Of a DNA stretch of 55,518 bases, positions 1 through 55,518 are shown one piece after another; within the stretch, counting starts at the first letter, position 1, and every line of letters begins with the position of its first letter. The DNA lies in NCBI GenBank assembly GCA_963698075.1, contig OY969116.1, positions 255,492 to 311,009 of the forward strand, read 5' to 3'. This stretch comes from an uncultured Candidatus Berkelbacteria bacterium (GTDB lineage Bacteria > Patescibacteriota > UBA1384 > UBA12157 > JAENIV01). The notes under the pieces were generated by a model that saw nothing but the letters and a program-made list of their open reading frames with translations, had not been told where the DNA came from and did not search any database. The translations under genes and the position numbers were made by a program.

Positions 1-1218
1 TTTCTCTTCTGGGTGATTCCTGGAACGTGGCTTGCTCGGGACTTGATCTCGACACTAAGGAAGGATGCGGCCTACCAGCGTGCGCACCCATATTCCAAGG
101 CAAAGCAGTTGGCCGCTAATGCCTTCGCTGATCAGTGTCTGGTCCGGGCCAGGAAGCTGGGTGATGCCTATGGTCCCAAGGAGTACTTTACGGATCTGAT
201 GGCCATCCACGACCACTCTGTTGGTGTTTTTCTCGCTCATGACCGCATCGGTCAGATGCAGATGGTTTTGACTAGAAACAGGAATGCCGGCCGGGTCTCC
301 GAGAGGGAGTTCAAGATCTATCAGCAAATCTCCTTGAAACACCTAGACCCGCCGGATCCAGAATGGGTAAACAAGGGCACAGGCCCCAAGATCCTCTACT
401 GGTTGGTCTTCGCCTACCTCAAGATGATGCTTATCGCCGGCTTCACCTACCTCCTGCGGATGGTTGATGATCGCGGGATCCTGGAGACAGTGCTGGCGGA
501 CAAGCGGAAGTTTATCTTCGCTTTGTTCGACTGGCCCCATCAATGGGATAAGTACCCGCGCAACGTCGTTCGCGAGATCGTGGTTGAAGCCGAGCTACGG
601 CGGATTGGTGGCTTCTTCAGACGGTTCAACCCGATCGAACGACTGGCGATTCGCGAGATCGCCAACGCCCCTGACTATCAGGAACGTCTGGCCGCTCTTC
701 GCCAAGCCCTCCAGCCTGAGTGGCAACGGGGAATCCTCTTGGCGCTTCTGGGAACGCTGTTTTGTCTGATGTTCTTACCCAGGAGCCAAGCCAAGGAGAC
801 GGTCCAATCAGAAAGGTCAGCTGTCCACACCCAGGACACCCGAGCCGGACCGATACTCTCGCTTGCCGAGAGTCATCCCGACCACCCGGAAAGCCAGAAC
901 TGGAGCCAAACGGCTAATCTGCCTGAACCAGTAATCTGGATAAGACAGAAAGTCATACAGCTCCTGGCAAGGTTCACCACGCTGGCGCGCCAAGAGGTAC
1001 TGCGTGCCATTGACCATGTCCCGCTCCTTATCGCTTGGTCCTTTACCCAGTTGTTCGTGGATCAAGCGAAAGGAGATCACCGTGAACGTGAGAACATGGT
1101 TGGTGGTTGCCAACCTTATCGGCTGGTTGTCGTTGGCTGGCCTCGCCCAAGCCGCCAATCCGGCGGACGCGACATCGCTCTTCCGCTACTGCCCGGAGCT
1201 CTACCAGTACGCCTATGA
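1..1218 (+). CDS. hypothetical membrane protein (5' end may lie outside window)
   Basis: Frame is open from nt 1; first start is GTG at 13. High-GC codon usage and hydrophobic stretches (ILYWLVFAYLKMMLIAGFTYLL, ILLALLGTLFCLMFL). No family recognised. The last ~135 nt overlap the next CDS, so the true 3' end is uncertain. Confidence 0.4.
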   Translation, partial: FLFWVIPGTWLARDLISTLRKDAAYQRAHPYSKAKQLAANAFADQCLVRARKLGDAYGPKEYFTDLMAIHDHSVGVFLAHDRIGQMQMVLTRNRNAGRVSEREFKIYQQISLKHLDPPDPEWVNKGTGPKILYWLVFAYLKMMLIAGFTYLLRMVDDRGILETVLADKRKFIFALFDWPHQWDKYPRNVVREIVVEAELRRIGGFFRRFNPIERLAIREIANAPDYQERLAALRQALQPEWQRGILLALLGTLFCLMFLPRSQAKETVQSERSAVHTQDTRAGPILSLAESHPDHPESQNWSQTANLPEPVIWIRQKVIQLLARFTTLARQEVLRAIDHVPLLIAWSFTQLFVDQAKGDHRERENMVGGCQPYRLVVVGWPRPSRQSGGRDIALPLLPGALPVRL

Positions 1219-1729
1219 TGGCGGACCGTGGCATCTCTTTGCCATCAAGCCGCTTGAAGGCGACTGGTCACTGATGGCCTACAACTGGCACAGCGAAGAT
1301 GGCGAGAAGCGCGAGATGGAACTCTCCTTGACTAAGCGCTTCCCCGAGAGTGGCGTCCAAGTGGCGGGCATCGTCGATAACTGGGACGGTGGTTCGGATA
1401 ACACCAAACTGATGGTTGACTGGGCACGTGGTCCAGTGGCCATCGGCACCCTTGTCCCCGTCTCGGGCGATACGCCAATCAAGGTCGGGCCCCGGCTGAC
1501 AATCGGTAACGTCACGAGCTTTGCGACGTTAGCCGAAAGCGGCTGTGAGCCGACCAAATACGGCGCAAGCTACATCGCTAAAGGCGCCAAGCTCGAGGTC
1601 GCCTATGGTGGCGAGACCTGGTACTTTCGGGCCTCTAAACGTAACGGACACGTTACGACTGAACTCAGGACCAGGTTCGCCGAGACTGAAAGCTTCGTTG
1701 GCTTCAGTCTCACCTACTACCCCCAGTAA
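1082..1729 (+). CDS. secreted hypothetical protein (signal peptide)
   Basis: GTG at 1082 lies 6 nt after SD aaaggag. N-terminus VNVRTWLVVANLIGWLSLAGLAQA-A looks like a Sec signal peptide. Followed by a strong terminator. The track ORF 1004..1729 is in the same frame. Confidence 0.55.
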   Translation: MNVRTWLVVANLIGWLSLAGLAQAANPADATSLFRYCPELYQYAYDGGPWHLFAIKPLEGDWSLMAYNWHSEDGEKREMELSLTKRFPESGVQVAGIVDNWDGGSDNTKLMVDWARGPVAIGTLVPVSGDTPIKVGPRLTIGNVTSFATLAESGCEPTKYGASYIAKGAKLEVAYGGETWYFRASKRNGHVTTELRTRFAETESFVGFSLTYYPQ

Positions 1730-1766
1730 CCTCGCTATCGGCGGGCTACTGGCTTTCGACCCCCTT

Positions 1767-1800
1767 GCAGGGTCCCGCCAAAGGCGGGACCCTGCTTTCG
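1767..1800 (+). terminator. rho-independent terminator
   Basis: 13-bp perfect stem gcagggtcccgcc / ggcgggaccctgc with loop aaa, followed by tttcgtattt. Confidence 0.8.
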
Positions 1801-1803
1801 TAT

Positions 1804-2767
1804 TTAGGCCAACTTTTCTAAAAGTTCTTTGATTCCAACACCCGAAACTGCGGAAATTAAGAGGACTTTTTTATCTAATTCTTTCGCTATAATATCGCAA
1901 ATTTTGGCTGCGGCTTTCTCGTCCATTGTGTCGGATTTATTCAAAACCACTATTTCTTTTCTTTCGTAATAATTTTTCGCTCCACAGAGCCAATTCTTGG
2001 CGGATAGTTTCATAATCTTGGACAATATGTTCTTTATTAATATCAATTAAATGGACTAAAACGTTGGTTCTTTCAGTATGACGCAGGAATTTATCGCCCA
2101 AACCTTTTCCTTTTGAGGCGCCTTCGATTAGACCGGGAATATCAGCAACCACAAACTGTTTCTCATGACACCTCACCACCCCTAAATTCGGCTCCAAAGT
2201 CGTGAAAGGATAGTCAGCGATTTTTGGCCGAGCGTTAGAAATTCGGGCCAAAAGAGTTGATTTGCCGGAATTAGGAAGGCCAATGAGACCAACATCGGCA
2301 ATTAATTTAAGTTCTAATTTTAAGGTTTTTGTCTCACCCGGCTCCCCTTTTTTAGCAAAAGCAGGGGACTGGCGAGTAGCCGTTGCAAAATGAACATTGC
2401 CCCAACCGCCGCGACCACCCTTGGCAATTAATACTCGCTCACCTATTTTGGTAAAATCATGAATTATTTTTTCATCAATCTTCATCACGGTCCCCCGCGG
2501 CACTCGCAATTCCAGATCTTGCCCCTGGCCACCCTTTTGTCTTTTTGGCTTACCCTTAACCCCATCCTCTGCCCGCCACTCTTTTTTTCGGGCGAATTCC
2601 GAAAGGGTATGGGTGTTATCATCACAAATGACAAAAATATCGCCACCATCTCCCCCATCGCCGCCGTCGGGGCCGCCCTTGGGAACATACTTTTCGTGGC
2701 GAAAAGAGACGAGTCCGTCCCCGCCTTTACCTGCGATTATTTTAATTGTCGCCTCATCGGTCAGCAT
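1804..2767 (-). pseudogene. obg: GTPase Obg/CgtA interrupted by a 1-nt frameshift (or sequencing error)
   Basis: ORF 2767..1937 has the Obg Gly-rich N-domain (GGPDGGDGGDGG), G1 GLPNSGKST and G3 DIPGLIEGA. ORF 2046..1804, in another frame, supplies G4 VVLNKSD and the C-terminus. The span is 964 nt, not a multiple of 3. The frames switch in the A-rich run near 1955-1965. Confidence 0.85.
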
Positions 2768-2833
2768 GTTTTAATTTTCAATTTTTAAATCTTAATTTAC
2801 AAAAAATATTCAAATCTCAATATCCAAACTTTA

Positions 2834-3187
2834 TTATTTAATTTTTGCAGAAATGCTTTGCAGAATTAAAGTTAGCTCATGACTTTCCTGCCACAGTATT
2901 TTAGCTTGTTTTCCTTCATTTGGCAAACATCTGATGATCATTCGAAGCCAATGTTTAGTCTCTTGAGCCTCTTTTTTAGAAATATTTATTTTGTTTTTGA
3001 AATCTTTTCTAGAACTGGCGGAATTAGCTTCCATATAATTGGCTCCGATACTTGTACCTGATCTTACAAGCTGACTTATTATTGGCCGAGTAATTATGTT
3101 TTGTGTTATGCTTTTACAAAAATCGATGATATTTTCGCCGAATTTGGCAGTTCTTTCCTCGAGATCATATTTTGAAATTTGAGGCAT
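2834..3187 (-). CDS. four-helix-bundle protein (23S rRNA intervening-sequence protein family)
   Basis: 117 aa with the typical pattern: FGENIIDFCKS, QLVRSGTSIGANYMEA, SRKDFKNKINISKKEAQETKHWL. Confidence 0.85.
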   Translation of the reverse strand: MPQISKYDLEERTAKFGENIIDFCKSITQNIITRPIISQLVRSGTSIGANYMEANSASSRKDFKNKINISKKEAQETKHWLRMIIRCLPNEGKQAKILWQESHELTLILQSISAKIK

Positions 3188-3228
3188 TGTAATTTAATTG
3201 TAAATTGTAAATTTGAAATTGAAATTTG

Positions 3229-4164
3229 TTAGTAGATATATCCCATAATTAATCCACCGCGAGCTGGAAGTGTTCTTCGGTCAACCATTCCCCAACCAAC
3301 ATAGTTCATCTCGGAAATGGTGATGCGTCCGCCACTGACGGCCTCGACATAAGCCACGTGACCCAGCCAAGACTCGTTAAGGACAACAATGGCGCCAGCT
3401 GCGGGCACGCTACCGGTTGAATAGCCGCTTCTCCTTGCCGAAGAAAGCCAGCTTCGGGCATTACCCCAGCCGCCAGGAACATATCGGCGCGTCGCCACAT
3501 AGTAAGTACACCAGCCATAGGGATAGGCGTTACTCTTCGAACCCGGAGCAGTTCGAACAGAGGCTCCGGCAACTTTCTTTTGCTGCAGGCTGGCTAATTG
3601 GGCTGGAGATAAATCCTGGGGCGGTAATTTCAGTTGTTGACCCGGCCGAACCAAATCTGAAGTTAAATTATTGGTCGCCTTGATGGTGGCAATCTTTAGT
3701 CCGTATCGCCAGCCAATAGAAGAGAGAGTATCCCCGCCAAGTACGGTATAAGTGATTGTTGTCGTTCTTTTGGTAGTAACCTGCGGCGCGACAGTCACAT
3801 TGGTGACTGCCAACACGGGTTTATCGAGGAAGCCCGAATCTTCCATGGCCAAGGCCACTGTCACCGGATCCTGCTCAATCCCGCCCGAAGCCGTATAGGG
3901 GCCAACTTCAGAAACCACTTGGGCAACTTCCGCTGGTGAAAGGTCCATCATCTCCGCTGAAGGTTGGTAGGTATAAGTTGTTTCCGCGGCTTTGGCAATA
4001 TCAGCCACTAAAGTAAAGGCAAAAACACCGACAATAGCCAAATAGGGAATGATTCTTCTTTGGGTAAAATCGACGAGACCTTCGGGGAGGCGGTTGCGAA
4101 GGCGCTTGGAAAAAATATTCAAACGTGAAGTAATTTTTTGACCAATTTGGGTAAAAATAGACAT
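3229..4164 (-). CDS. membrane-anchored LysM + CHAP domain peptidoglycan hydrolase
   Basis: N-terminal TM segment (IIPYLAIVGVFAFTLV). LysM (YTVLGGDTLSSIGWRYGLKIATIKATNNL..PGQQLKLP). CHAP (NAYPYGWCTYYV ... GHVAYVEAV). Confidence 0.85.
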   Translation of the reverse strand: MSIFTQIGQKITSRLNIFSKRLRNRLPEGLVDFTQRRIIPYLAIVGVFAFTLVADIAKAAETTYTYQPSAEMMDLSPAEVAQVVSEVGPYTASGGIEQDPVTVALAMEDSGFLDKPVLAVTNVTVAPQVTTKRTTTITYTVLGGDTLSSIGWRYGLKIATIKATNNLTSDLVRPGQQLKLPPQDLSPAQLASLQQKKVAGASVRTAPGSKSNAYPYGWCTYYVATRRYVPGGWGNARSWLSSARRSGYSTGSVPAAGAIVVLNESWLGHVAYVEAVSGGRITISEMNYVGWGMVDRRTLPARGGLIMGYIY

Positions 4165-4243
4165 AAGTATTCCTCGCCTCGTTAGAGGCGGGGGTACATT
4201 TCCCAGTGTATTTCAAGCAAGCAAGAACGTCAAGCCACGTGGC

Positions 4244-6127
4244 TTACTGTCCCAATTTCCGAGTTCTTTCTTCTTTTTTGAAGCATTCTAAAATATCACC
4301 AACTTGAATTTTGGTGGGAGTTTCGATTTTTAGCCCCGCTTCAAAATTTTCCGCCACCTCACTAACATCCTTTTTGTTCTGCTGCAAGTTAGTGATTTTA
4401 CCGGCGCCGATGGTATCTTTATCGCGAACAATTCTTGTTTGGGCGCCATTGGCAATTTTCCCGGTTGTCACTCTGCCGCCAACAATTTTTTCTTTTTTGG
4501 TGACACGGAAAACAGCCAAAACCTCCAACCGACCAAGCTCGACCTCGACAATTTCCGGTTCCAAAAGCCCGCTCAAAGCCGCTGAAAGATCATCAATCAA
4601 TTGATAAATAATTTCATAAATTTGAATTTTGATATTTTCCCGGCGTGCCAAATTCATCACTTCGGCAACGGCTTTAACCCTAAAACCAATGACGAGGGCT
4701 TCTGAGGCCACCGCCATGTTGATGTCTGATTCGGAAATATCCCCGACCCCCTCATGAATAACTTTGATTTTAACTTCTTGGGTTGATAAATTTCCAAGCG
4801 AATTTTTAATCGCCTCCAGTGACCCGTCAACGTCGGCTTTAAGCACAATCTTGAGTTCTTTGATTTTGCCCTTTTTGATATCTTGGGAAAGTTCGGTAAT
4901 CGAAAGCACCCGCCTTTTGATTGTTTTGGTCTTGGTCATCTCACGGGCTTCCTTTTCGTCTTCAAGAGCGATAAAGCGATCGCCAAAATTAGGCAGGTCT
5001 TGGAGGCCAGCGATTCTGACTGGCGTTGAGGGAAGGGCTTCACTTACGCGGCGGCCCAAATAATTTTCCATGATTCGGACTTTGCCATAGGTTTGACCGA
5101 TAACCAAAGGATCGCCGGTATGAAGCGTACCGTCTTGAATAAGGACGGTCGCAATCGGACCACGCCCGGCTTGCATATGGGATTCGATCACGACACCAGC
5201 TGCCGGCTGATTAGGATCAGCTTTGAGCTCACCCAAATCAGCCACCAGCAAAATCATTTCCAATAAGGCAGGAATGTTTTTGTTAAGCTTGGCACTCACC
5301 TCAACCATCGGCACTTTACCGCCCCACTCCTCGGCTAAAAGTCCAATATCCGATAATTGTCTTTTGGTCTTTTCAACATCAGCGTCAGGAAGATCGATTT
5401 TATTAATCGCCACCACCATCGGCACTTTAGCTTCTTTGGCATGATTGGCCGCCTCCACGGTCTGCGGTTTGACACCGTCATTGGCGGCCACTACCAAAAC
5501 GACCACGTCAGTGATGTTGGCGCCGTGAGCCCGCATTGCTGAAAAAGCTTCGTGACCCGGAGTGTCTAAAAAGGTAATGGTCCGCTCTTTTTGAGTTTTG
5601 TCCTTAATTTTTTTGGGCCTGATCGTCACTTGGTAGGCGCCGATGTGTTGAGTGATCCCGCCCGATTCGGTCGAGATGACATCAGTTTGGCGAATGGCGT
5701 CAAGTAATTTAGTTTTGCCATGGTCAACATGGCCCATCACTGTCACTACTGGCGGCCGGGTTTTTAAGTTCTTTTTGATTTTCTTTTCTTCTGTTTTTAC
5801 TTTTTCGCTTTGACTTTTTAGTTTAATTTCGTATCCCAGCTCATCGCCAATAATCGCCATGGTATCAAAATCAATTGATTCATTAATCGTTGCCATGACG
5901 CCGTTTTTCATCAAGGAGGCAATGACTTCGGTCACCGGCTGTTGCAAAGTTTCGGCAAACTCCCTTACCGTCAAAACTGAAGGAACCTCAATAATAACCT
6001 TGCTTACCGATGACTGACTACCGTCTACAGCGGTCTCATTTTCTGTAGTCTGTAGTCTGTTTGCGGTAGTCTTTGCCTGGGCTTTGGCTTCTTTTTTACT
6101 CAATTTTCTCTGTCGTCTTCTTGCCAT
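4244..6127 (-). CDS. infB: translation initiation factor IF-2
   Basis: 627 aa with G-domain motifs GHVDHGKT, DTPGHEAF and NKID, plus IF-2 C-terminal domains. Confidence 0.95.
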   Translation of the reverse strand: MARRRQRKLSKKEAKAQAKTTANRLQTTENETAVDGSQSSVSKVIIEVPSVLTVREFAETLQQPVTEVIASLMKNGVMATINESIDFDTMAIIGDELGYEIKLKSQSEKVKTEEKKIKKNLKTRPPVVTVMGHVDHGKTKLLDAIRQTDVISTESGGITQHIGAYQVTIRPKKIKDKTQKERTITFLDTPGHEAFSAMRAHGANITDVVVLVVAANDGVKPQTVEAANHAKEAKVPMVVAINKIDLPDADVEKTKRQLSDIGLLAEEWGGKVPMVEVSAKLNKNIPALLEMILLVADLGELKADPNQPAAGVVIESHMQAGRGPIATVLIQDGTLHTGDPLVIGQTYGKVRIMENYLGRRVSEALPSTPVRIAGLQDLPNFGDRFIALEDEKEAREMTKTKTIKRRVLSITELSQDIKKGKIKELKIVLKADVDGSLEAIKNSLGNLSTQEVKIKVIHEGVGDISESDINMAVASEALVIGFRVKAVAEVMNLARRENIKIQIYEIIYQLIDDLSAALSGLLEPEIVEVELGRLEVLAVFRVTKKEKIVGGRVTTGKIANGAQTRIVRDKDTIGAGKITNLQQNKKDVSEVAENFEAGLKIETPTKIQVGDILECFKKEERTRKLGQ

Positions 6128-6221: not shown

Positions 6222-7349
6222 TTATTCGCCCGGAGGCAGAAGAACTAGATCGCCAGCTGGTCCAAAGATTGTCTGGCGCTCGCCTTCCTCGACGCGACCG
6301 ACCTCCATGACTTCGTAGCCAGCCTTGGTACCAATTTCAATGGCACGGTCGGATTCAGACCTGGGTACGAAGATGTAGTAGCCCATACCCCAGTTGAAGG
6401 TGGTCAGACAGTCCATCAAGCTGACGCCCAACTCGCGCATGTATCGGAAAAGCAGAGGGATTCGGTCTTCGGGCAACCAGTCCGTAACTCGATATGTGAA
6501 GGGCCGCTTATCGTAGGCAAGCTTGGCGACGCCATCGCCGGTACCGGGAAGCAGCGCGTGGATATCGACTTTGGCTTCGAGCAAGGCTTCGACCAGGGCA
6601 ACGTAGGATCGGGTCGGAATGAGCGCTTCTTCGCCTAGGGTATTACCGTTCGGGAGCTTGGTCATGAAGACTTCTGACAAAGTTAGCGCTCTCTTAATCA
6701 CCAGTGAGATACCGTTGGCATGCAGTCCTGAAGCGGTCGCCCCGAGGATGATATCTCCCGCACTCAGCTTTTCGCCAGTCACCAGATTTCCGTATGGCAT
6801 AATGGCACCGGTAACACAGCCGGATAGCGACGGTGCGCTCTTGACGGGCGGCTCGGCCTTGATCAGATATCGCAGCGCCGGCGATTCGCCGGCCCCCAAA
6901 GCCATTCTGACTACTTTGCAAACCTGAAAATAGCTTTCGGCCAGATCCCGTGAGCGCTGTTGATCGGTAAACCAGTCGCTATCACCACCGGCAACTTCGT
7001 CAGTGTACATGACCGGCATAGCGCCGGCGGCAATACAATCGTTGACGGCCATCAGCGCCGTATCGATGCCGATGCCGTCGTAGAAGGTTCGTCCGGTGCC
7101 GGAAAACTGGTACATCCACTCGGCAATCCAGTTCTTATTGCCGAGTCCTTCCTGAGTGTTGTGCAAAAAGAAAGGAAGAGGACCGCTATAATGGTAGACG
7201 GCACCGTGGGAATGCGGTGTTTGAGTGATATACCAGCCACGGCGGTTGGGAAACCCAAGAGTCCTTCGGCCAGCCTCGGCCATCATGTCCTTGAAACCCT
7301 GAAGTTTGGTGTAATCGACTCCAGACTGCGCGTACTCACCTTTCGGCAT
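6222..7349 (-). CDS. purM: AIR synthase (PurM) family protein, phosphoribosylformylglycinamidine cyclo-ligase-like
   Basis: 375 aa, high GC. PurM-like blocks: YAQSGVDY, GIDTALMAVNDCIAAGA, GATASGLHANGISLV, LPGTGDG, TFNWGMGYYIF. SD aaggagag precedes the ATG. More divergent than canonical PurM. Confidence 0.7.
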   Translation of the reverse strand: MPKGEYAQSGVDYTKLQGFKDMMAEAGRRTLGFPNRRGWYITQTPHSHGAVYHYSGPLPFFLHNTQEGLGNKNWIAEWMYQFSGTGRTFYDGIGIDTALMAVNDCIAAGAMPVMYTDEVAGGDSDWFTDQQRSRDLAESYFQVCKVVRMALGAGESPALRYLIKAEPPVKSAPSLSGCVTGAIMPYGNLVTGEKLSAGDIILGATASGLHANGISLVIKRALTLSEVFMTKLPNGNTLGEEALIPTRSYVALVEALLEAKVDIHALLPGTGDGVAKLAYDKRPFTYRVTDWLPEDRIPLLFRYMRELGVSLMDCLTTFNWGMGYYIFVPRSESDRAIEIGTKAGYEVMEVGRVEEGERQTIFGPAGDLVLLPPGE

Positions 7350-47776: not shown

Positions 47777-47787
47777 CCGTCTCCTAA

Positions 47788-49007: not shown

Positions 49008-49024
49008 ATTCCCCTCCTATATAA

Positions 49025-49053
49025 ATAATACAACCATAACCAAATATCTTCAA
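49025..49053 (-). promoter_or_regulatory. sigma70-type promoter of the DUF488 cassette
   Basis: Minus strand reads TTGAAG, 17 nt, TATTAT, ending ~17 nt before the ATA codon. Confidence 0.5.
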
Positions 49054-49069
49054 GATTTGGCATAATTTT

Positions 49070-49657
49070 TTATTTTTCCACTTTAAAAATCTTCCCATGC
49101 CCCGGGATAATGTAGTCGGCATGTTCTAAAATATTTTCCCGAGATTTTTTAAGCTCTTCTGTATTCTTCGCATATTCATCAGATTTATTCATTAAACTTT
49201 CGCGATCGGTTTTTTGTTCTTCCTCATCCCACCACCAAAACACATCTTCGGCGACAACGATGGTCCCATTATCGGTTTTTACCACGACCGAGCAATGAAA
49301 CGGATCGTGACCGGGTGTTTTAATAACTTTTATATCGTCGCTCGGGAAGGGCTTGTCAGCGACATAATCCTCGTAACCACCTTCGAAAGTATAAATTGCC
49401 CCATCATCCACTAATTTGGCTTTTTCAAAAATGCCAGCCAAACCGCAATGGTCGAGATGCGTGTGCGAAATCACGACATAATTAATATCGCGAGGCATTA
49501 GATTCTCTTTGGCCAAACCATCAAGCAGTTTTGTCCGATCCATCCCCGGGTCAACGATGATTTTCGTATCCTTATCAATAATTAACACGCAGCTTGAGGT
49601 CGCTTTGCCAGATTTTTTGATTGCGTAACCTTCGACTAAAATTTTTACTTCAGCCAT
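49070..49657 (-). CDS. MBL-fold metallo-hydrolase
   Basis: VISHTHLDHCG (HxHxDH) and later His/Asp ligands (TPGHDPFH, IPGHG). Confidence 0.88.
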   Translation of the reverse strand: MAEVKILVEGYAIKKSGKATSSCVLIIDKDTKIIVDPGMDRTKLLDGLAKENLMPRDINYVVISHTHLDHCGLAGIFEKAKLVDDGAIYTFEGGYEDYVADKPFPSDDIKVIKTPGHDPFHCSVVVKTDNGTIVVAEDVFWWWDEEEQKTDRESLMNKSDEYAKNTEELKKSRENILEHADYIIPGHGKIFKVEK

Positions 49658-49844
49658 ACTTTACTTCCCAGAAATCACTAATTGTTAATCCATCTCACTC
49701 CCATTATACCTGCCACCATAAAACAAATACAACCACATCACACATTACCTAAGTAAACATTCTTAAATTCTTAAGAAATTGAGAATAGTCCATCAAGTTG
49801 TTTTTTTTCTGAATTCAGAGTATTTTTAATAAAGAGGAGGGAAA

Positions 49845-51893
49845 TTGTCACGAACAACTAAGATCTTATTTGCTATTATTGTTATTATTGTTCTTGCCGG
49901 ACTTTTAGTGGGTATTTATTTCTTAGGCAAATCAAAAAGTTCTTCGACGTATAAATCTGTTAGTAGTAAGCCAAACGGTTGGTTTAGTACCGGCCAAGAT
50001 GCCGATTTGATGCTTTCCGGAATTGATTTTAACAATACTGGCGGAGCGCTGCTGTTTAACCACCAAGGTGGCATCGCTAGCGACGGAAAACATCTACTCC
50101 TAGCGGACCGCAACAATAACCGTATTTTAATTTGGAACTCTCTACCGCAAGGCAATACCAAGCCAGATCTTGTGCTTGGTCAAAAAGATTTTATTACCAA
50201 TAACCCGGGCAGTGGGCCGGATGGATTAAACTGGCCGGTGGCAGTGGCAACCAACGGCACGCATATAGTCGTGGCCGATACCAACAATAATCGCATCTTA
50301 ATTTGGAACTCTTTTCCCAGTAAAAATGACCAACCAGCTGACCTTGCCATTACCAATGCCGGCGGCGGCACCGGACCTGCTCCTAAGCAAATTTCCATTA
50401 ACGATCTAAAACGGACTATTGTTTGGCCCTGGGCGGTTTGGACGAATGGCGAAAAACTGGTTGTTACATCCACTTCAACATCATCAGTGCTGATTTGGAA
50501 CTCTTTTCCCAGTCAAAATGACCAACCGGCTGACATTGCGCTCAAGGCCCAAGACAAGTTTGGCACTCCCCGTTCCATTGCCAGTGATGGTAATCATTTG
50601 ATGATTGGCGACCATAATGCCAGAGCCAATGGCAACAATCCCGGCAACTTTTTCTGGAAAACCTTCCCGACGAAAGACGACCAGCCATATGATTTTTTTA
50701 TAACCAGCGCGATGAGCAACAACAAGCAAGGGGAAAGCGCGCACGGTGAAATTTTTTGGGGCGGCGCATTTACGCCAGAAGGAAAATTCATCACTATGGG
50801 CGACTCGTTGGATATTTGGAACGCCTTCCCGCAAAATGAAAAAGACTTGCCGACATTGATCGTCGGTAACTCGGGGCCTACTGACAACAGCGCTTATAGA
50901 TTTATGGCTGGCGACGGCAGTGGCATTGTTCTAGCTGATAAGACGCTTTATATCTCTACTACCAACGGCAATAAAATTGTGGTTTATAAAAATCTCCCCA
51001 CAGCCGCCTCTCAAAAACCAGATTTTGCCATTGGCTCACCGGATATCAACACCAACACGCTCGATACTAATTTTATTATGAGCAATCCAGTACCGGCAAC
51101 CGACGGTAAAAGTCTGTTTGTCAGCTCCGATTTTGACAACAAACTCTATGTCTATAAAAATTTGCCCGACCAAGCCAACGCGCATCCTGATTATGTTTAT
51201 CCTTACGGAGGTTGGGATAACGCACTTTACCAGAACACCTTCGCCGAGGCCAATTCCAGAACAGTTTATATCTGGAAGACACTTCCTACTAATGGCAACG
51301 AACCCGACATTGTCTTAAACGACCATATCGGCAATATCCAGTTACAAGAGGCCAAGGGCGTGGCGATCGATGAAAAATATTTTTATCTTTCCGACGCGAA
51401 TGCCAATAAAATCTACGTCTTTGAAGGTATCCCCACTCAAAATAGCACGCCCAAATTCACGCTAAATTCCGACCGGCCCTTAAGACTTTCCAGTGACGGC
51501 AGTTATTTAGTAGTCGCCAATACGGAGTCATCAAAAGATAACGGCAATGTTCGCGTTTATCAAGTTGATAAATTGCAAAATGATGCCCAGCCGCAAATTC
51601 TAAAATTCCAAAGTCCGGGCACCAATCTACCCCAAAGCGCGGAAGTCAGCCATGGCAGTCTGTTTGTTGCTGACACCGGTTTTAATCGCGTTCTCGTTTG
51701 GAAAAAAATAGAAGATGCTCTTTCTGACAAACAACCCGATGTCGTATTAGGACAAAGCAATCTCAACGATACTGCGCCAGCGATTGGCAAGAACAAAACT
51801 TTTTGGCCGGCCAATACCGCGTTTGATGGCAGTTTTCTTTGGGTTGGAGAATTTAAATTTTCAGAACGTTTATTGCGCTTCGATGTGCATTAA
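49845..51893 (+). CDS. membrane-anchored NHL-repeat beta-propeller protein
   Basis: TTG start after SD gaggaggg, then an N-terminal TM segment. Repeated D(R/T)NNNRILIWNS-type NHL motifs. Confidence 0.8.
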   Translation: MSRTTKILFAIIVIIVLAGLLVGIYFLGKSKSSSTYKSVSSKPNGWFSTGQDADLMLSGIDFNNTGGALLFNHQGGIASDGKHLLLADRNNNRILIWNSLPQGNTKPDLVLGQKDFITNNPGSGPDGLNWPVAVATNGTHIVVADTNNNRILIWNSFPSKNDQPADLAITNAGGGTGPAPKQISINDLKRTIVWPWAVWTNGEKLVVTSTSTSSVLIWNSFPSQNDQPADIALKAQDKFGTPRSIASDGNHLMIGDHNARANGNNPGNFFWKTFPTKDDQPYDFFITSAMSNNKQGESAHGEIFWGGAFTPEGKFITMGDSLDIWNAFPQNEKDLPTLIVGNSGPTDNSAYRFMAGDGSGIVLADKTLYISTTNGNKIVVYKNLPTAASQKPDFAIGSPDINTNTLDTNFIMSNPVPATDGKSLFVSSDFDNKLYVYKNLPDQANAHPDYVYPYGGWDNALYQNTFAEANSRTVYIWKTLPTNGNEPDIVLNDHIGNIQLQEAKGVAIDEKYFYLSDANANKIYVFEGIPTQNSTPKFTLNSDRPLRLSSDGSYLVVANTESSKDNGNVRVYQVDKLQNDAQPQILKFQSPGTNLPQSAEVSHGSLFVADTGFNRVLVWKKIEDALSDKQPDVVLGQSNLNDTAPAIGKNKTFWPANTAFDGSFLWVGEFKFSERLLRFDVH

Positions 51894-51930
51894 AGTAACA
51901 TATTTGGTAACCCAAACGAGATGAGGGAAA

Positions 51931-52854
51931 ATGAGTCGTTTGACTAAAATATTGCTTATTGTTTTGGGGATTCTTATTTTTGCGGGAATTTTGCTCGGAG
52001 TTTATTTTTTCACTAAGTCAAAAAGTTTCTCCACTCCGTCGAAGTCCAACACCGTGGCGCAAGATCCCAATGGTCCCTATTACCATAAAATTTATCTGGC
52101 AACTTCAAAAGACGGCCTGACTTGGCAAAAGCAAGATAAAGTTCTCTTTGATCACGCTTCGGTTCCGGGAGCAGTTATTAAAGATGATGTCATTTACCTT
52201 TATTTTGTAGATGCTTCAGGCGATTTAAGTGATCAACTCTCGGTTGGCATAAGTAAAGATTTAGGTAAAAGTTTTAATAAACAAAAAATAGTAATAAAAG
52301 GCGCTACCTTAGCTGCCGTTGATCCAAATCCGGTTTTGTTAGACAATGGCCAAATCCGGCTTTATTATTTTGCTAGTCCTGTTACTGCCGGCGACCCGGC
52401 TGCGGCCTCGGGGCCACACAAAATTATATCCGCCCAGTCAAGCGATGGTATTAATTTTGATAGTCCCCGCGAGGTTTTTGCCGAAGAAAATATTACTGAT
52501 CCGGACGTCTTTAAAACCGCCAAAGATTGGCGATTATTCGTTTCTCACGGCACCTCTTTGGATTTGGCTATTTCTAGCGATAATGGAATCACTTTTACCA
52601 AGCAGAATGATTTTTCGTGGAATAACGGCGGTGTTTCCAGCACCGATGATATTTCTGGAACATTACGGACCTACTATTGCGGCCAAGGCGGAATTGGTAG
52701 CGCCATCGGCGCCGACACCGGTAAATTAACGGCTGAAGCCGGTATTCGGGTGGCCGAAAGCAATAAAATTGTTTGCGATCCCTCTGTGATTCAACTTCCC
52801 GACGGTACCTATATGATGTTTTACAAAGTTCAGGAACTAACTCAAAATAAATAG
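51931..52854 (+). CDS. membrane-anchored BNR/Asp-box (sialidase-like) beta-propeller protein
   Basis: N-terminal TM segment. Asp-boxes TSKDGLTW, SKDLGKSF, SSDGINF, SSDNGITF. Confidence 0.7.
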   Translation: MSRLTKILLIVLGILIFAGILLGVYFFTKSKSFSTPSKSNTVAQDPNGPYYHKIYLATSKDGLTWQKQDKVLFDHASVPGAVIKDDVIYLYFVDASGDLSDQLSVGISKDLGKSFNKQKIVIKGATLAAVDPNPVLLDNGQIRLYYFASPVTAGDPAAASGPHKIISAQSSDGINFDSPREVFAEENITDPDVFKTAKDWRLFVSHGTSLDLAISSDNGITFTKQNDFSWNNGGVSSTDDISGTLRTYYCGQGGIGSAIGADTGKLTAEAGIRVAESNKIVCDPSVIQLPDGTYMMFYKVQELTQNK

Positions 52855-52965
52855 AAAAATCTTGTTCTCACTTGAATATCTTCTCAAAAAAAGAGTATAA
52901 TGAGCCCAAATTAAGAATGCTTTAGCCCGCTAAACGCGGGTCCGCGATAGCGGAAAAGGAGCAAA

Positions 52966-53724
52966 ATGAATTATCTCTATGGTGTAATTGCGTTTGTGGT
53001 TCTACTTATTATTTTTCGGGCATTTCGGGTAATTCAGCAATACGAAAAGGGAGTGGTTTTTCGTTTGGGAAAAGTCTGGGGTGAGAAAAATCCCGGCTTT
53101 CGGTTCATTATTCCAATTATTGATCGGCTAAGAAAAGTCTCGCTCCGGATTGTGACGATGCCGGTACCGGCGCAAAAAATTATCACCAAAGACAATGTTT
53201 CCATTGATGTCGCGGCAGTGGCTTACTATCGGGTCAAAAATGCCACCAAATCTTTGGTGGCGATTCAAAATGTGGATTCGGCCATTAATCAGATCGCCCA
53301 GACAACGGTTCGCAACATTGTCGGCCAGTTTATGCTCGACCAGGTGCTTTCTGAAACAGTCAAGATTAATGAAAAAATCAAGGAAATCATTGATGTTCAT
53401 ACCGAAGCCTGGGGCGTGGAAGTCACCACCGTGGAAATTAAAGATATCCAACTGCCGGAGACAATGCAAAGAGCAATGGCCAAACAAGCTGAAGCCGAGC
53501 GTGAGAAACGAGCAAAAATTATTGCGGCTGAAGGCGAGCTTTTGAGTGCCAAAAATTTGGGAGCGGCGGCGGATATTATTTCTGCGCACCCGATTGCTTT
53601 ACAGCTTCGTAATTTACAAGTTCTAACCGAAATTGCGGTCGAAAAAAACTCAACGATTGTTTTTCCAAATTCATTTTTTTCAACCATCAACGACGTCAAA
53701 AAGTTTTTGAATTTGGAAAAATAG
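52966..53724 (+). CDS. SPFH/band 7 (stomatin-like) protein
   Basis: N-terminal TM segment, [15 protein letters not shown], and C-terminal coiled coil [17 protein letters not shown]. Confidence 0.92.
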
Positions 53725-53755: not shown

Positions 53756-53826
53756 CTGCGGGGGCTGGATTCGAACCAGCGCAACGGCCTCCAAAGGGCC
53801 GCGTCCTACCGCTAGACGACCCCGCA
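53756..53826 (-). tRNA. tRNA-Gln (anticodon UUG)
   Basis: 71-nt cloverleaf read on the minus strand. Acceptor UGCGGGG/CCCCGCA (U1-A72), anticodon loop CUUUGGA, T-arm GCUGG UUCGAAU CCAGC. CCA is not encoded. Confidence 0.9.
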
Positions 53827-53834
53827 TTACCCCA

Positions 53835-53863
53835 ATCTTATCATTTTCACCTTGATTTTTCAA
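53835..53863 (-). promoter_or_regulatory. promoter of tRNA-Gln
   Basis: Minus strand reads TTGAAA, 17 nt, TAAGAT, ending 8 nt before the tRNA 5' end. Confidence 0.55.
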
Positions 53864-53871
53864 CCAAAAAA

Positions 53872-54213
53872 GCCCTAAGTAATCGATAAGCCAGGTTTTG
53901 TTTTGGCGATATCTATCTAAGCGTCGGAACTCCGGGACATCGGGTCGAGCAGACCTTGATGATATTTGGAGTCCATCCGACTTGCACCACGTAGGGTTTT
54001 CACCGCACCATGTCACCATGGTTGCGCGTGGGCTCTTACCCCACGATTTCAACCTTACTCTTACCTTGCCGGCAGTGAGCGGTGTGTTTCTGTTGCACTA
54101 TTCCCTAGGTCACCCTTGGTCGCCTTATGGCGACTACGTTGCTCTATGGTGCCTGGACTTTCCTCCCCATCCGCCAGTTGGCGGACAGAGCATTCGCCTC
54201 GATTACTTAAGGC
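53872..54213 (-). ncRNA. rnpB: RNase P RNA, bacterial type A
   Basis: Minus strand contains GGAGGAAAGUCCAGGC, GUGCAACAGAAACA, GGUAAGAGCCCACG and ACAAAACCUGGCUUAUCG. P1 pairs GCCUUAAGUAAUCGA with UCGAUUACUUAGGGC. Confidence 0.9.
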
Positions 54214-54247: not shown

Positions 54248-54274
54248 TCAAAAAAGAGCAAATCCCTAAACTTA

Positions 54275-54303
54275 TTGACATCAAGGATTTCTTCTGCTAT
54301 AGT
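54275..54303 (+). promoter_or_regulatory. promoter of pilin-like gene
   Basis: TTGACA, 17 nt, TATAGT. Confidence 0.6.
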
Positions 54304-54415
54304 ATTGTTGACTTTTGAAACGGTCCAAAATCCACAAGAAAGGAGGTCTGTACCTTCCTATCGACGTCGGATTGGGACCGGATCCGACGATCAAAGCTGC
54401 AGCAAGGAGAAAGCC

Positions 54416-55432
54416 GTGAGAAGGCGTAAGGGTTTCACCCTGATCGAGCTGCTAGTGGTCATCGCGATTATCGCGATCCTGGCAGCGATGCTGTTCCCGG
54501 TCTTTGCGCGCGCTCGTGAGTCGGCGCGCAAAATCCAGTGTCTCTCGAACGTCAAGAACATCGCCATCGCGGTCCAGATGTACCTGACGGACTATGACAG
54601 GTTCCCGCCCTGTGAGCATAGTCCGGAGGCGAACGCGTACTTCCAGACCGCTCCTGGCGGCGGAACCGACGCGCCCAACGACTGCTGCAACCGTAAGCCA
54701 CAGGCTAACCCCTTCCTCCGCTGGCCGGTAATCATGGACGAATACACCAAGAACCGCGATGTCTACCGTTGCCCGAGCGCCAAGCGCGCCATCGTGGCAA
54801 GGTGGATCGTGCCCAACTACGGCCGCGGCTACCTGGACTATCTCAAGCAGAGTGAGGGTCACTGGGGCCGGAACGATCCTGACTGTGGCGGAGGACCCTG
54901 TTGTCTGGCTTTCCCACCGGGCTGGGGAGGTTCGGTCACTGACTCCATCGCCCAGCACCAGGAGTCTGGCACAGACACTGGGGCCGCGGAAACCACCATC
55001 TGCTTCGCCGAGAACGCTTTGACCAACTCCAAGGAGTCACAGGTCTCTGACCCGGCATACTGCGTTGTTGCCGGCGACTCCTCGATCTACGCCAATATCC
55101 TCGGCGTAGACGACATGATGTACAACCTCTGCGGTCTAAGCTGTGGTAATGCTGACTGGGCGAACTGTCCGGACACGCAGACCTGCGGACTCGACTCGCA
55201 CTTGGTTGACAAGTGGGCGACAGACCCGTCCTTCCGTGCCAAGTACACCCGGCATATGGGCGGTGGCAACGTCGGTTTCGCCGACGGCCATGCGGCCTGG
55301 TTCAACGCCGAAGCCCTGGCCGCGATCACCCCCGACTGCGTGTGCTGCTCGCCTGAGACGGGCGGCACCGGCTCGACCATGCACACCGAGGGCCGGCCGA
55401 TCCGCGGCCTCTGCCCCTACGGGCTGGGCTAG
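54416..55432 (+). CDS. prepilin-type N-terminal cleavage/methylation domain protein with H-X9-DG (DUF1559-like) C-terminus
   Basis: GTG at 54416 after SD aaggag. RRRKGFTLIELLVVIAIIAILAAMLFP and HMGGGNVGFADGH. The upstream 150 codons of the track ORF overlie rnpB and are rejected. Confidence 0.85.
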   Translation: MRRRKGFTLIELLVVIAIIAILAAMLFPVFARARESARKIQCLSNVKNIAIAVQMYLTDYDRFPPCEHSPEANAYFQTAPGGGTDAPNDCCNRKPQANPFLRWPVIMDEYTKNRDVYRCPSAKRAIVARWIVPNYGRGYLDYLKQSEGHWGRNDPDCGGGPCCLAFPPGWGGSVTDSIAQHQESGTDTGAAETTICFAENALTNSKESQVSDPAYCVVAGDSSIYANILGVDDMMYNLCGLSCGNADWANCPDTQTCGLDSHLVDKWATDPSFRAKYTRHMGGGNVGFADGHAAWFNAEALAAITPDCVCCSPETGGTGSTMHTEGRPIRGLCPYGLG

Positions 55433-55455
55433 TGATGTCGATCGTACTGACGTTT

Positions 55456-55489
55456 GGGACGCGCTGCTAAGCGCGTCCCTTCTTTTTTT
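55456..55489 (+). terminator. rho-independent terminator
   Basis: gggacgcgc tgctaa gcgcgtccc followed by ttcttttttt. Confidence 0.85.
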
Positions 55490-55518
55490 AATGAGATCTT
55501 CTTAATGGTTGATAAAAA

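What the first reader, a model, noticed from the sequence alone, without database searches (positions are those of the whole stretch)
1..55518. Fine-grained mosaic of two compositional classes (about 15 alternations in 55 kb)
Judged by eye from third codon positions and A/T runs (I did not compute GC), the window switches repeatedly. High-GC blocks lie at about 1-1800, 6150-12800, 13920-15245, 25980-29640, 32275-35060, 35460-37860, 45020-46510 and 54300-end, with low-GC blocks between them. Switches fall in intergenic spacers, usually at a terminator. The low-GC class holds informational and envelope genes typical of CPR/Patescibacteria (DUF4012, DUF5652, four-helix-bundle protein, DUF2207). 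The high-GC class holds metabolic genes those lineages usually lack (purine synthesis, gpsA/plsY, ThyA-like, sugar kinase, KAS). Both classes use the same TTGACA-N17-TATAAT promoters and GGAGG SD sites in AT-rich spacers. This could be cassette-wise acquisition of foreign genes by a reduced genome, or a chimeric or artificial assembly. The two readings have very different consequences.
Basis: partly seen in the sequence, partly recalled or inferred. Interest (0 to 1): 0.75.

Follow-up and report, generated by a model that had tools for sequence, protein, structure and literature searches.

The report
GC-rich gene islands in CPR genome
This 55-kb stretch of a tiny-genome (Patescibacteria/CPR) bacterium really is a patchwork of GC-rich gene islands set into a GC-poor conserved backbone; the patchwork is biological, not an assembly error, and is best explained by gene acquisition at different times, some of it old enough to be shared with distant relatives.

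Summary
The compositional mosaic is real. GC in 500-bp windows runs from 0.30 to 0.62, with sd 0.071 against 0.022 for a homogeneous sequence. It is not bimodal: there are three tiers, about 0.29-0.40, 0.44-0.47 and 0.52-0.61.

It is not a chimera. Three contigs from another assembler are 100% identical over 30.4 kb and span 11 of the 18 segmentation borders. Five assemblies of related Patescibacteria from other samples carry the same purine cassette at the same site, with the same GC step.

Relatives share the order BacTransf-GT1-Wzz-DUF4012-GyrB-GyrA-IF2-CHAP-Obg. In the window, high-GC blocks sit in variable gaps of that backbone.

Ages differ:
- The pilin-like DUF1559 gene is 84% nucleotide-identical to genes of GC-rich, 4.6-Mb-genome bacteria.
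- The purine cassette predates the split from relatives and still has GC3 of 0.63-0.80 against 0.40-0.49 for the backbone.

This is a known kind of feature (horizontally acquired islands in CPR), unusually dense at 36% of the window. The persistence of the GC contrast is only partly explained.

The parts
1..1795 (+). High-GC block A (GC 0.574). It holds the 3' part of a 430-aa orphan membrane protein (ends at 1218), a secreted protein of about 216 aa (1081-1729) and a terminator hairpin at 1767-1795.
   Evidence: The family has only 11 members. A homologous gene pair (36-37% identity) is also a GC 0.53-0.57 island in a GC 0.31-0.44 CPR-like contig, L026.
1937..6127 (-). Backbone genes: Obg (1937-2767), a 23S-IVP four-helix-bundle protein (2834-3187, GC 0.33), a CHAP/LysM protein (3229-4164) and IF-2 (4244-6127).
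   Evidence: Pfam. The order IF2-CHAP-Obg is conserved in L004-L008.
6227..12797 (.). High-GC block B (GC 0.537). Genes: PurM-like (6222-7349, -), a homologue of the PurL N-terminal/PurS domain (7401-7862, -), unknown ORFs (8041-9433, -), a PfkB kinase (9448-10398, +), adenylosuccinate-lyase-like (10536-11984, +) and pyroglutamyl peptidase (11986-12612, +).
   Evidence: The block lies in the GyrA-IF2 gap, which is only about 60-470 bp in L006-L008. ASL and PurM have orthologues inside the purine cassette of L018. The right border is spanned by Logan contig L027.
12798..14489 (.). Low-GC insert (GC 0.368): a ClpP-like SDH-type protease (12822-13760, +) and an 84-aa ORF (13984-14238, -).
   Evidence: Absent from the GyrA-IF2 gap of relatives.
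14490..15191 (+). High-GC block C (GC 0.568): one ORF of unknown function (14506-15027) and a terminator at 15168-15194.
   Evidence: Both borders are spanned by L027 at 100% identity.
15192..26504 (-). Backbone: an HD protein (15307-15930, +; inserted relative to relatives), GyrA, GyrB, DUF4012, Wzz, GT1, the sugar transferase and a 66-aa protein (25987-26187).
   Evidence: The order is conserved in L003-L007 and L017 at 51-89% amino-acid identity.
26505..29588 (+). High-GC block D (GC 0.549): ThyA-like (26460-27410), PurN-like formyltransferase (27583-28272), PurD (28298-29545) and a terminator at 29567-29590.
   Evidence: PurN-PurD sit at the same site (between the 66-aa gene and the P-type ATPase) in L014-L018, with GC 0.56-0.63. 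In L003 the 66-aa gene is adjacent to the ATPase. Spanned by L001.
29589..32273 (-). Backbone: P-type ATPase (29916-31883) and superoxide reductase (31897-32229).
32274..35060 (-). High-GC block E1: GpsA (32310-33293) and a PlsY fusion protein (33290-35056).
   Evidence: Not present at this position in L014, L017 or L018, which carry DUF498 and BNR genes there. The nearest homologue of the PlsY fusion is 61% identical, the next 46%. Spanned by L001.
35133..35369 (-). Low-GC inset: the DUF5652 gene (GC about 0.33) between two high-GC blocks.
   Evidence: It is also low-GC and adjacent to the GC-rich PurH in L017, and to the GC-rich sigma-like gene and PurH in L018.
35461..37797 (.). High-GC block E2: a sigma-70-like/LuxR-like 188-aa protein (35478-36044, +) and PurH (36150-37751, -).
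   Evidence: The sigma-like gene has orthologues in L014 and L018 (69-73% identity). PurH has a full-length orthologue in L018 (45%) and only truncated 198-210-aa ORFs in L014 and L017 (32-36%). All are GC 0.60-0.64.
37798..45038 (.). Backbone and accessory genes: matrixin-like, DUF2207, a response regulator, Ku, LigD phosphoesterase-ligase, LigD primase-polymerase and an M23 peptidase.
45039..46650 (.). High-GC block F (GC 0.551): a remnant of the FabF N-terminus (45088-45486, +), a 140-aa membrane-anchored ORF (45402-45824, -) and uninterpretable ORFs.
   Evidence: Only about the first 110 residues of FabF are recognisable. The right border is spanned by L019.
46651..53724 (.). Low and mid-GC accessory genes: Mrr-like nuclease, a 284-aa ORF, a metallo-beta-lactamase-fold protein, an NHL-repeat protein, a BNR-like protein and a Band-7 protein.
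53756..54209 (-). tRNA-Gln (53756-53826) and RNase P RNA (53872-54209), directly upstream of the last island.
54362..55480 (+). High-GC block G: a single gene (54416-55432, GC 0.626, GC3 0.79) for a protein with a prepilin-type N-terminal methylation motif and a DUF1559 domain, plus a terminator at 55456-55480. AT-rich DNA flanks it on both sides.
   Evidence: Protein identity is 78-88% to proteins on GC 0.61-0.67 contigs with non-CPR gene context. Nucleotide identity of 84-85% is confined to the CDS.

Best explanation
The window comes from a 929-kb contig of a Patescibacteria (CPR) genome; relatives are labelled Berkelbacteria or 'Patescibacteria group'.

Its backbone of informational and envelope genes has GC of about 0.37-0.47 and is syntenic with relatives. 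At a few variable intergenic gaps (GyrA|IF2, 66-aa gene|P-ATPase, SOR|DUF5652, next to Obg, next to tRNA-Gln/RNase P) accessory DNA has accumulated. Some of it is AT-rich (protease, HD, Mrr and others). Much of it is GC-rich DNA taken up at different times from GC-rich bacteria:
- Oldest: the purine cassette (PurN, PurD, PurH, PurM-like, ASL and the sigma-like gene). It entered before the window lineage split from the L014/L017/L018 lineages. It has since been inherited vertically, rearranged and partly eroded, and is drifting toward AT without having reached the backbone's composition.
- Youngest: the pilin-like DUF1559 gene, which is still compositionally indistinguishable from its homologues in large GC-rich genomes.

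Shown: the mosaic, its reproducibility, the presence/absence pattern at conserved sites, the close foreign homologues of DUF1559, and the excess of GC-to-AT changes in the cassette.

Inferred: direction and number of transfers, uptake mechanism (probably natural transformation and illegitimate recombination, because no mobility genes or repeats flank the blocks), and donor identity.
For: (1) Taxonomy and backbone. GyrA is 68-77% identical to Patescibacteria MAGs, and those loci share the gene order.

(2) Insertion pattern.
- The GyrA-IF2 gap is about 60-470 bp in L006-L008 and 9.85 kb in the window.
- In L003 the 66-aa gene is adjacent to the P-ATPase; in the window 3.7 kb of ThyA-like/PurN/PurD lies between them.
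- The GyrA-IF2 gap varies in every relative.
- L007 has an unrelated 592-aa gene of GC about 0.55 next to Obg, the gene that also borders window block A.

(3) Not an artefact.
- Logan contigs are 100% identical across 11 of the 18 segmentation borders.
- The same cassette and the same GC step occur in ENA, JGI, NCBI and Logan assemblies of other samples.

(4) Recent transfer.
- DUF1559 has 78-88% amino-acid and 84% nucleotide identity to genes on GC 0.61-0.67 contigs with AraC, GAF-kinase and ROK neighbours and several DUF1559 paralogues.
- One of those contigs is 4.66 Mb; another member of the same 90% cluster lies on a 4.56-Mb contig.
- Homology stops at the CDS ends.
- The gene is flanked by an AT-rich promoter region and by a terminator followed by AT-rich DNA.

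(5) Old transfer.
- The PurD clade of 8 proteins is 59-76% identical internally and 46-54% identical to everything else.
- Cassette divergence is comparable to backbone divergence.

(6) Decay toward AT.
- Polarised four-fold-site changes in PurD plus PurN are 23-26 GC-to-AT against 2-4 AT-to-GC on the window lineage. Backbone changes are roughly balanced.
- Window cassette GC3 is 0.63, against 0.72-0.80 in relatives.

(7) Erosion.
- Only a FabF N-terminal remnant survives.
- Of PurL only an N-terminal fragment survives.
- PurH is truncated in L014 and L017.

(8) Block-level composition includes non-coding DNA. Spacers inside H blocks have GC 0.49, against 0.39 for backbone spacers.

(9) HGT and genomic islands in Patescibacteria, up to 13% of genome length, have been described (PMC12455944).
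Against: - No integrase, transposase, flanking direct repeats or att-like sites lie at any block border.
- No donor closer than about 50% identity is known for PurD. The nearest PlsY-fusion homologue is 61% identical, the next 46%. The block A proteins have at most 44%. For most blocks, foreign origin therefore rests on composition and presence/absence only.
- Four-fold sites between lineages are close to saturation (normalised excess identity 0.1-0.3), yet cassette GC3 stays at 0.70-0.80 in three lineages. A rough two-state relaxation estimate (my inference) would need an ancestral GC3 of 1 or more. Simple neutral amelioration toward the backbone value therefore fits poorly.
- The block A gene pair is GC-rich in two contigs whose proteins are only 36% identical.
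- The junctions at 1795, 6227, 45039 and 54362 were not covered by the independent contigs I could retrieve.
- The Logan run may be the same read set as the source assembly.
Confidence: 0.68

Rival explanations
1. The GC-rich blocks are compositional domains held at high GC by a force acting on those genes or regions. Candidates are selection on codon or amino-acid usage, GC-biased gene conversion in frequently recombining accessory loci, or continual replacement by fresh GC-rich DNA at the same hot spots. On this reading the high GC is not a fading donor signature.
For: - The contrast persists across lineages whose four-fold sites are near saturation. Cassette GC3 is 0.70-0.80 in L014, L017 and L018 against 0.40-0.48 for their backbones.
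- In L018 the polarised changes are nearly balanced, 7-12 against 4-11.
- The orphan gene pair of block A is GC-rich in both the window and L026 at 36% protein identity.
- PurL of L014 and L017 is only 37% identical while PurD next to it is 71% identical, which suggests gene replacement inside the island.
- Cassette content differs between relatives at the same site.
Against: - The window lineage shows a strong GC-to-AT excess and a lower GC3, as expected for decay.
- Spacers inside the blocks are also GC-enriched, which argues against selection on coding sequence only.
- Housekeeping genes that should be highly expressed (IF2, GyrA/B) are not GC-rich.
- A contrast this large goes beyond what I recall gene-conversion studies in bacteria reporting (own knowledge).
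- The saturation estimates are rough, and parsimony is biased when base composition is skewed.
Confidence: 0.18
2. Chimeric or mis-joined metagenome assembly: the high-GC and low-GC DNA belong to different organisms.
For: - The closest DUF1559 homologues are on GC-rich contigs with non-CPR gene context, at least one from a 4.66-Mb genome. One such contig (L022) comes from a JGI sample that also yielded a CPR relative, L015.
- Logan contig L019 stops at 53895, inside RNase P RNA, so it does not confirm the last junction.
Against: - Three Logan contigs are 100% identical across 11 of the 18 segmentation borders.
- The same architecture occurs in five other assemblies from other samples.
- The borders fall at gene edges, not at random.
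- The DUF1559 gene has AT-rich DNA on both sides, so a chimera would need two mis-joins within 1.2 kb.
- Homology to the GC-rich contigs is limited to the CDS.
Confidence: 0.03
3. The GC-rich metabolic genes are ancestral to this Patescibacteria group and were lost in the relatives that lack them. The pattern would then be differential loss, not gain.
For: - Backbone identities place the window, L007, (L003, L005, L006) and (L014, L017) about equally far apart, at 67-70%. Polarity is therefore not resolved.
- Cassette genes are eroding in several lineages.
- The PurD clade has no close outgroup.
Against: - It does not explain why these genes, their spacers and their proteins are GC-rich (GARP-rich) in GC-poor genomes.
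- The 66-aa protein and GT1 group the window with the cassette-bearing L014/L017, which fits a single gain.
- Most CPR lack de novo purine synthesis (own knowledge).
Confidence: 0.1
4. The blocks are parts of a classical mobile element: an integron cassette array, an ICE, a prophage or a transposon.
For: - Hairpins sit at several block ends.
- Block G lies next to a tRNA gene.
- L014 has an IS200-type transposase near the locus.
Against: - The window has no integrase, transposase, relaxase or phage genes.
- The hairpins differ in sequence and are followed by T-runs, so they are ordinary terminators.
- No direct repeats flank the blocks.
- The two H proteins I tried (the block A orphan and DUF1559) have no relatives in IMG/VR viral contigs.
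Confidence: 0.02

Closest known systems
Horizontally acquired genes and genomic islands in Patescibacteria/CPR (Genetic exchange shapes ultra-small Patescibacteria metabolic capacities, mSystems 2025, PMC12455944)
   Same: A reduced CPR genome carries islands and single transferred genes that add metabolic functions. Donors include non-CPR community members, and most detected transfers are not recent.
   Different: [quoted passage not shown]
- They are small (0.7-6.6 kb), lack mobility genes and sit in conserved variable gaps.
- The largest cassette is shared at the same site by related genomes from other samples.
- That paper assumes old transfers become undetectable through amelioration. Here the GC signal survives near-saturation of synonymous sites.
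Amelioration model of transferred DNA (Lawrence and Ochman 1997; own knowledge)
   Same: Transferred genes start with the donor's composition and drift to the recipient's. Third codon positions move fastest. Window PurD has a GC3 (0.63) lower than its GC1 and GC2 would predict, and shows an excess of GC-to-AT changes.
   Different: In the relatives the cassette GC3 (0.72-0.80) shows little sign of relaxation despite about 0.5 or more synonymous substitutions per site per lineage (my estimate). This is slower than the neutral model predicts.
Host-derived or community-derived adaptive genes in episymbiotic Saccharibacteria, for example the arginine deiminase system (own knowledge, not checked here)
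   Same: CPR bacteria gain metabolic or surface functions by lateral transfer.
   Different: No host is known here. The genes concerned are for purine synthesis, GpsA/PlsY and a pilin-like DUF1559 protein. The link to a host is speculation.
Integron gene-cassette arrays
   Same: Short gene cassettes, often bounded by an imperfect hairpin, are stacked at one locus.
   Different: There is no IntI and no attC consensus. Orientations are mixed, cassettes have their own promoters, and they are dispersed over several loci.

Membership tests
Horizontally acquired genomic island | Base composition and codon usage deviate from the rest of the genome | tested here: met
   H segments have GC 0.52-0.61, against 0.29-0.47 elsewhere. 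GC3 is 0.50-0.79 against 0.27-0.49. Proteins are GARP-rich.
Horizontally acquired genomic island | Present or absent at a conserved site among related genomes | tested here: met
   The GyrA-IF2 gap and the gap between the 66-aa gene and the P-ATPase are empty or differently filled in L003-L008. The purine cassette is present at the same site in L014-L018.
Horizontally acquired genomic island | Closest homologues lie outside the recipient's lineage | tested here: inconclusive
   Met for DUF1559: 78-88% identity to proteins on GC-rich contigs with non-CPR gene context, at least one from a 4.66-Mb genome. Not resolvable for PurD, where everything outside the clade of 8 is about 50% identical and spread over many phyla. 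The nearest homologue of the PlsY fusion is 61% identical, the next 46%. Block A orphans have at most 44%. No trees were built.
Horizontally acquired genomic island | Mobility signatures: integrase or transposase, flanking direct repeats, tRNA target | tested here: not met
   No mobility genes and no flanking repeats. Only block G lies near tRNA-Gln and RNase P RNA.
Chimeric / misassembled contig | Junctions between classes are not reproduced by independent assembly or data | tested here: not met
   Logan contigs L001, L019 and L027 are 100% identical across 11 of the 18 segmentation borders. Relatives from other samples show the same junction types. The borders at 1795, 6227, 45039 and 54362 are among those not covered.
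Two-class (bimodal) compositional mosaic | Bimodal GC or k-mer distribution | tested here: not met
   BIC favours one component. The dip test gives p = 0.90-0.95. Segments form three tiers. Tetranucleotide z-scores do not separate the classes.
Integron cassette array | IntI integrase, attI and attC recombination sites, promoterless co-oriented cassettes | tested here: not met
   No integrase. Hairpins differ in sequence and are followed by T-runs. Orientations are mixed, and promoter-like sites occur inside the blocks.
De novo purine synthesis operon | A complete set of pathway enzymes | tested here: not met
   Only PurD, a PurN-like protein, a PurM-like protein (130 bits, below the TIGR00878 cut-off of 236), PurH, an ASL-like protein and a fragment resembling the PurL N-terminus are in the window. 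PurF, PurL/Q, PurE/K and PurC were not seen. The rest of the genome is not available.

The most novel reading that the evidence does not exclude
In this Patescibacteria clade a set of accessory metabolic loci is kept at GC3 of about 0.7-0.8 inside genomes whose backbone sits at 0.25-0.5. The contrast is at or near equilibrium rather than a fading donor signal. That would mean a locus-specific force operates in a sub-megabase bacterial genome and produces stable, isochore-like domains at the scale of single genes. Candidates are biased gene conversion at recombination hot spots, selection on GC, or continual re-supply of GC-rich DNA at fixed uptake sites.
Probability: 0.18. Interest if true: 0.8.

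Novelty: new member of a known kind. Interest (0 to 1): 0.45.

Why it matters
- It shows that a striking GC patchwork in a CPR genome is biology, not misassembly. This matters for binning and curation, because composition-based tools would split or discard such contigs.
- It gives a concrete, site-resolved example of how a reduced symbiont-like genome gains, keeps, reshuffles and loses metabolic modules (purine synthesis, glycerolipid precursors). It also shows such a genome picking up a pilin-like surface protein from a large-genome neighbour that could be a host or a close associate.
- The long persistence of the GC contrast offers a natural test of amelioration rates, and of whether GC-biased processes act in CPR bacteria.

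Tried and rejected
- Bimodality tests (Gaussian mixtures, dip test) rejected the two-class description.
- GC-corrected tetranucleotide signatures were too noisy at these lengths to separate the classes.
- The search for flanking repeats or att sites found none at the block borders. It found only an unrelated 150-nt repeat.
- The metagenome scan with PurD returned only PurDs 40-52% identical and none of the clade, so it gave no extra context.
- Viral-contig scans for the block A orphan and for DUF1559 found nothing.
- Look-ups of the DUF1559 protein with two alternative start codons found no record, so no independent contig for the last junction was obtained.
- PDB, Pfam and NCBIfam searches of the unknown ORFs in blocks A, B, C and F gave nothing beyond the FabF N-terminal remnant.
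- Literature searches found no description of this clade's GC mosaic.
- The idea that only coding sequence is GC-rich (selection on codons) was rejected, because spacers inside the blocks are also GC-enriched.

Full report
**Observation.** The window has an overall GC of 0.467, but GC in 500-bp windows ranges from 0.298 to 0.624. The sd of 500-bp GC is 0.071. That compares with 0.022 for a homogeneous sequence and 0.033-0.054 in comparable loci of relatives without islands. Recursive likelihood-ratio segmentation, at a threshold well above the maximum of 100 shuffles, gives 19 segments. The high-GC segments are 1-1795, 6227-12797, 14490-15191, 26505-29588, 32274-37797 (with a low-GC inset for the DUF5652 gene), 45039-46650 and 54362-end. 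Borders lie a median 38.5 bp from a gene edge against 217 bp at random, and 83% are within 100 bp against 29%. Several 3' edges carry strong terminator-like hairpins.

The distribution is not bimodal. BIC prefers one broad Gaussian at every window size tried, and the dip test gives p of about 0.9. The segments form three tiers:
- H, about 0.52-0.61, 36% of the window.
- M, about 0.44-0.47, 37% of the window: GyrA/B, IF2, Obg, Ku/LigD and others.
- L, about 0.29-0.40, 27% of the window: DUF4012, glycosyltransferases, DUF2207, Mrr and the IVP protein.

The first axis of codon usage is simply GC3 (r = 0.96). GC-corrected tetranucleotide signatures do not separate the tiers beyond noise. The contrast reaches the protein level: GARP is 0.27-0.34 in nearly all H-block proteins against 0.17-0.27 in nearly all backbone proteins. 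It also reaches the spacers inside H blocks, at 0.49 against 0.39.

**Gene content.** Pfam, NCBIfam, ARAGORN and Rfam give the annotation listed under 'parts'. H blocks hold purine genes (PurD, PurN-like, PurH, PurM-like, ASL-like, a homologue of the PurL N-terminal domain), GpsA and a PlsY fusion, a PfkB kinase, pyroglutamyl peptidase and a ThyA-like protein. They also hold a sigma-like protein, a remnant of the FabF N-terminus, a pilin-like DUF1559 protein and several orphans.

**Whose genome.** GyrA is 68-77% identical to MAGs labelled Berkelbacteria, Patescibacteria group or Saccharibacteria. The window's PurD lies on a 929,420-bp contig. In the relatives the order (P-ATPase)-66-aa gene-sugar transferase-GT1-Wzz-DUF4012-GyrB-GyrA-IF2-CHAP-Obg is conserved, and their loci have GC of 0.36-0.42.

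**Not an assembly artefact.** Three contigs assembled by Logan from run ERR10755944 are 100% identical to 9840-15355, 24394-40863 and 45473-53895. They cross 11 of the 18 segmentation borders. One contig end falls in a 150-nt repeat. The read set may be the one used for the source assembly, so this is an independent assembler, not necessarily independent data.

Independent data come from relatives. PurD has seven homologues at 58-66% identity, and then a drop to about 50% in many phyla. I looked up three of the seven. They lie on five contigs from ENA, JGI, NCBI and Logan, all at the same site: 66-aa gene, then [ASL / PurL / PurN / PurD], then P-ATPase, SOR, DUF5652, the sigma-like gene and PurH. 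The cassette has GC of 0.56-0.63 in a 0.33-0.46 backbone. The mosaic is therefore a heritable property of a subclade.

**Insertions in a conserved backbone.**
- The GyrA-IF2 gap is about 60-470 bp in L006-L008, 1.9-5 kb of low-GC genes in L005 and L004, and 9.85 kb in the window. There it holds block B, a low-GC protease, block C and an HD gene.
- In L003 the P-ATPase abuts the 66-aa gene. In the window, block D lies between them.
- Between SOR and DUF5652 the relatives carry DUF498 and BNR genes, where the window has GpsA and PlsY.
- L007 has its own unrelated 592-aa gene of GC about 0.55 next to Obg, the gene that also borders window block A.
- The block A gene pair recurs at 36-37% identity as a GC 0.53-0.57 island in another CPR-like contig of GC 0.31-0.44.
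- No integrase, transposase or flanking repeat marks any border.
- The two H proteins I tried have no relatives in viral contigs.

**Ages.** Block G is young.
- The DUF1559 protein falls in a 90% cluster that also includes a protein on a 4.56-Mb contig.
- It is 78-88% identical to proteins on contigs of GC 0.61-0.67 (one of them 4.66 Mb). Those contigs carry AraC regulators, a GAF kinase, ROK, SIS, FBP aldolase and several DUF1559 paralogues.
- Nucleotide identity of 84-85% is confined to the CDS.
- Its GC3 (0.79) equals that of its homologues, with no excess of GC-to-AT changes.
- It is flanked upstream by an AT-rich region with divergent promoter-like sites and downstream by a terminator followed by AT-rich DNA. 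A chimera would therefore need two mis-joins in 1.2 kb.
- Even so, this junction was not covered by an independent contig.

The purine cassette is old.
- The backbone lineages differ by about 30% in protein sequence.
- Four-fold degenerate sites show a normalised excess identity of only 0.1-0.3.
- Cassette proteins are 50-64% identical between the window and its relatives.
- Content has been reshuffled. ASL and PurM sit in the cassette in L018 but in the GyrA-IF2 gap in the window. Where the relatives have PurL, the window has a ThyA-like gene. PurL of L014 and L017 is only 37% identical. PurH is truncated in L014 and L017.

**Is the GC contrast fading?** Cassette GC3 is 0.63 in the window and 0.72-0.80 in L014, L017 and L018. 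Backbone GC3 is 0.40-0.49 in all four. Polarised four-fold changes in PurD plus PurN are 23-26 GC-to-AT against 2-4 AT-to-GC on the window lineage. The ratio is 3-4 to 1 in L014 and L017 and near balance in L018. Backbone changes are roughly balanced. This fits decay toward AT, furthest advanced in the window. Parsimony does exaggerate such an excess when G and C are common.

There is a quantitative difficulty. By my rough two-state estimate, about 0.5 substitutions per synonymous site per lineage should have halved the excess. A GC3 of 0.77-0.80 would then need an ancestral GC3 of about 1 or more. Either the divergence is overestimated, or decay is slower than neutral, or the islands are re-supplied. 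I keep this as the main rival and the novel case (about 0.18).

**Comparison with what is known.** Islands and single transferred genes in Patescibacteria, reaching up to 13% of genome length and mostly not recent, have been described (PMC12455944). I found no report of a gene-scale GC mosaic conserved among related CPR genomes. The feature is a dense and well-resolved example of a known kind. The one aspect standard models explain only partly is the persistence of the contrast.

**Verdict.**
- Observation: partly confirmed. The blocks and borders hold; bimodality does not.
Chimera reading: rejected for most borders.
- Best explanation: multi-epoch acquisition of GC-rich DNA into variable gaps of a conserved CPR backbone, followed by vertical inheritance, slow amelioration and erosion (confidence about 0.68).
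- Interest: 0.45.

Noticed in passing
window 24274-24423 and 41769-41918: A 150-nt repeat in two direct copies, about 87-94% identical, in the GT1/sugar-transferase spacer and the Ku/LigD spacer. Both spacers are unusually GC-rich (0.58 and 0.54). It folds into a stable multi-helix structure (z from -3.2 to -4.6), and the differences between copies fall in one hairpin. There is no Rfam match above noise, and it is absent from the relatives' loci. It could be a small RNA or a miniature mobile element. One Logan contig ends inside it.
   Followed up: partly
window 33290-35056 (-): PlsY is fused to a C-terminal region of about 380 aa with a Rossmann-type (shikimate-DH-like) domain. The family is rare: 54 representatives at E<=1e-30 among 1.84 billion, about three dozen of them full-length. 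The best hit is 61% identical. The gene overlaps GpsA by 4 bp.
   Followed up: partly
window 45088-45486 (+): Only about the first 110 residues of a FabF-type ketoacyl-ACP synthase are recognisable, and the rest of the 1.6-kb GC-rich block has no detectable homology. It looks like a decayed acquired gene.
   Followed up: partly
window 40813-44352: A non-homologous end-joining set in a CPR genome: Ku, then LigD split into a phosphoesterase-ligase protein (41943-43436) and a separate primase-polymerase protein (within ORF 43267-44352).
   Followed up: no
window 53756-54345: tRNA-Gln and RNase P RNA (338 nt, 178 bits) lie directly upstream of the DUF1559 island. The spacer at 54210-54345 carries a near-consensus TTGACA-N17-TATAAT on the minus strand facing RNase P RNA, and a plus-strand promoter-like site plus an AAAGGAGG motif about 70 nt before the foreign gene's own SD and GTG start.
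   Followed up: partly
L014, L017, L018 (PurL genes): The large PurL of L014 and L018 (87% identical to each other) is only 37% identical to PurL of L017 at the same position, while the neighbouring PurD is 69-76% identical. This suggests replacement of one gene inside the cassette. The window has a ThyA-like gene at that position.
   Followed up: partly
L007 16103-17881: A relative without the purine cassette carries a single unrelated 592-aa secreted-protein gene of GC about 0.55 right after Obg, the gene that also borders window block A.
   Followed up: partly
window 46642-46668 and 46778-46804: A perfect 27-nt direct repeat, with further partial repeats, in the spacer at the right edge of GC-rich block F, before the Mrr-like nuclease gene.
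   Followed up: no
window 46862-49657: An Mrr-like restriction nuclease, a 284-aa orphan and a metallo-beta-lactamase-fold protein. The precomputed Pfam list for the last one includes a weak Anti-Pycsar Apyc1 hit. This may be a defence/anti-defence corner of the AT-rich tier.
   Followed up: no
window 50076-50700: Internal tandem repeats of about 160-190 nt within the 682-aa NHL-repeat protein gene.
   Followed up: no
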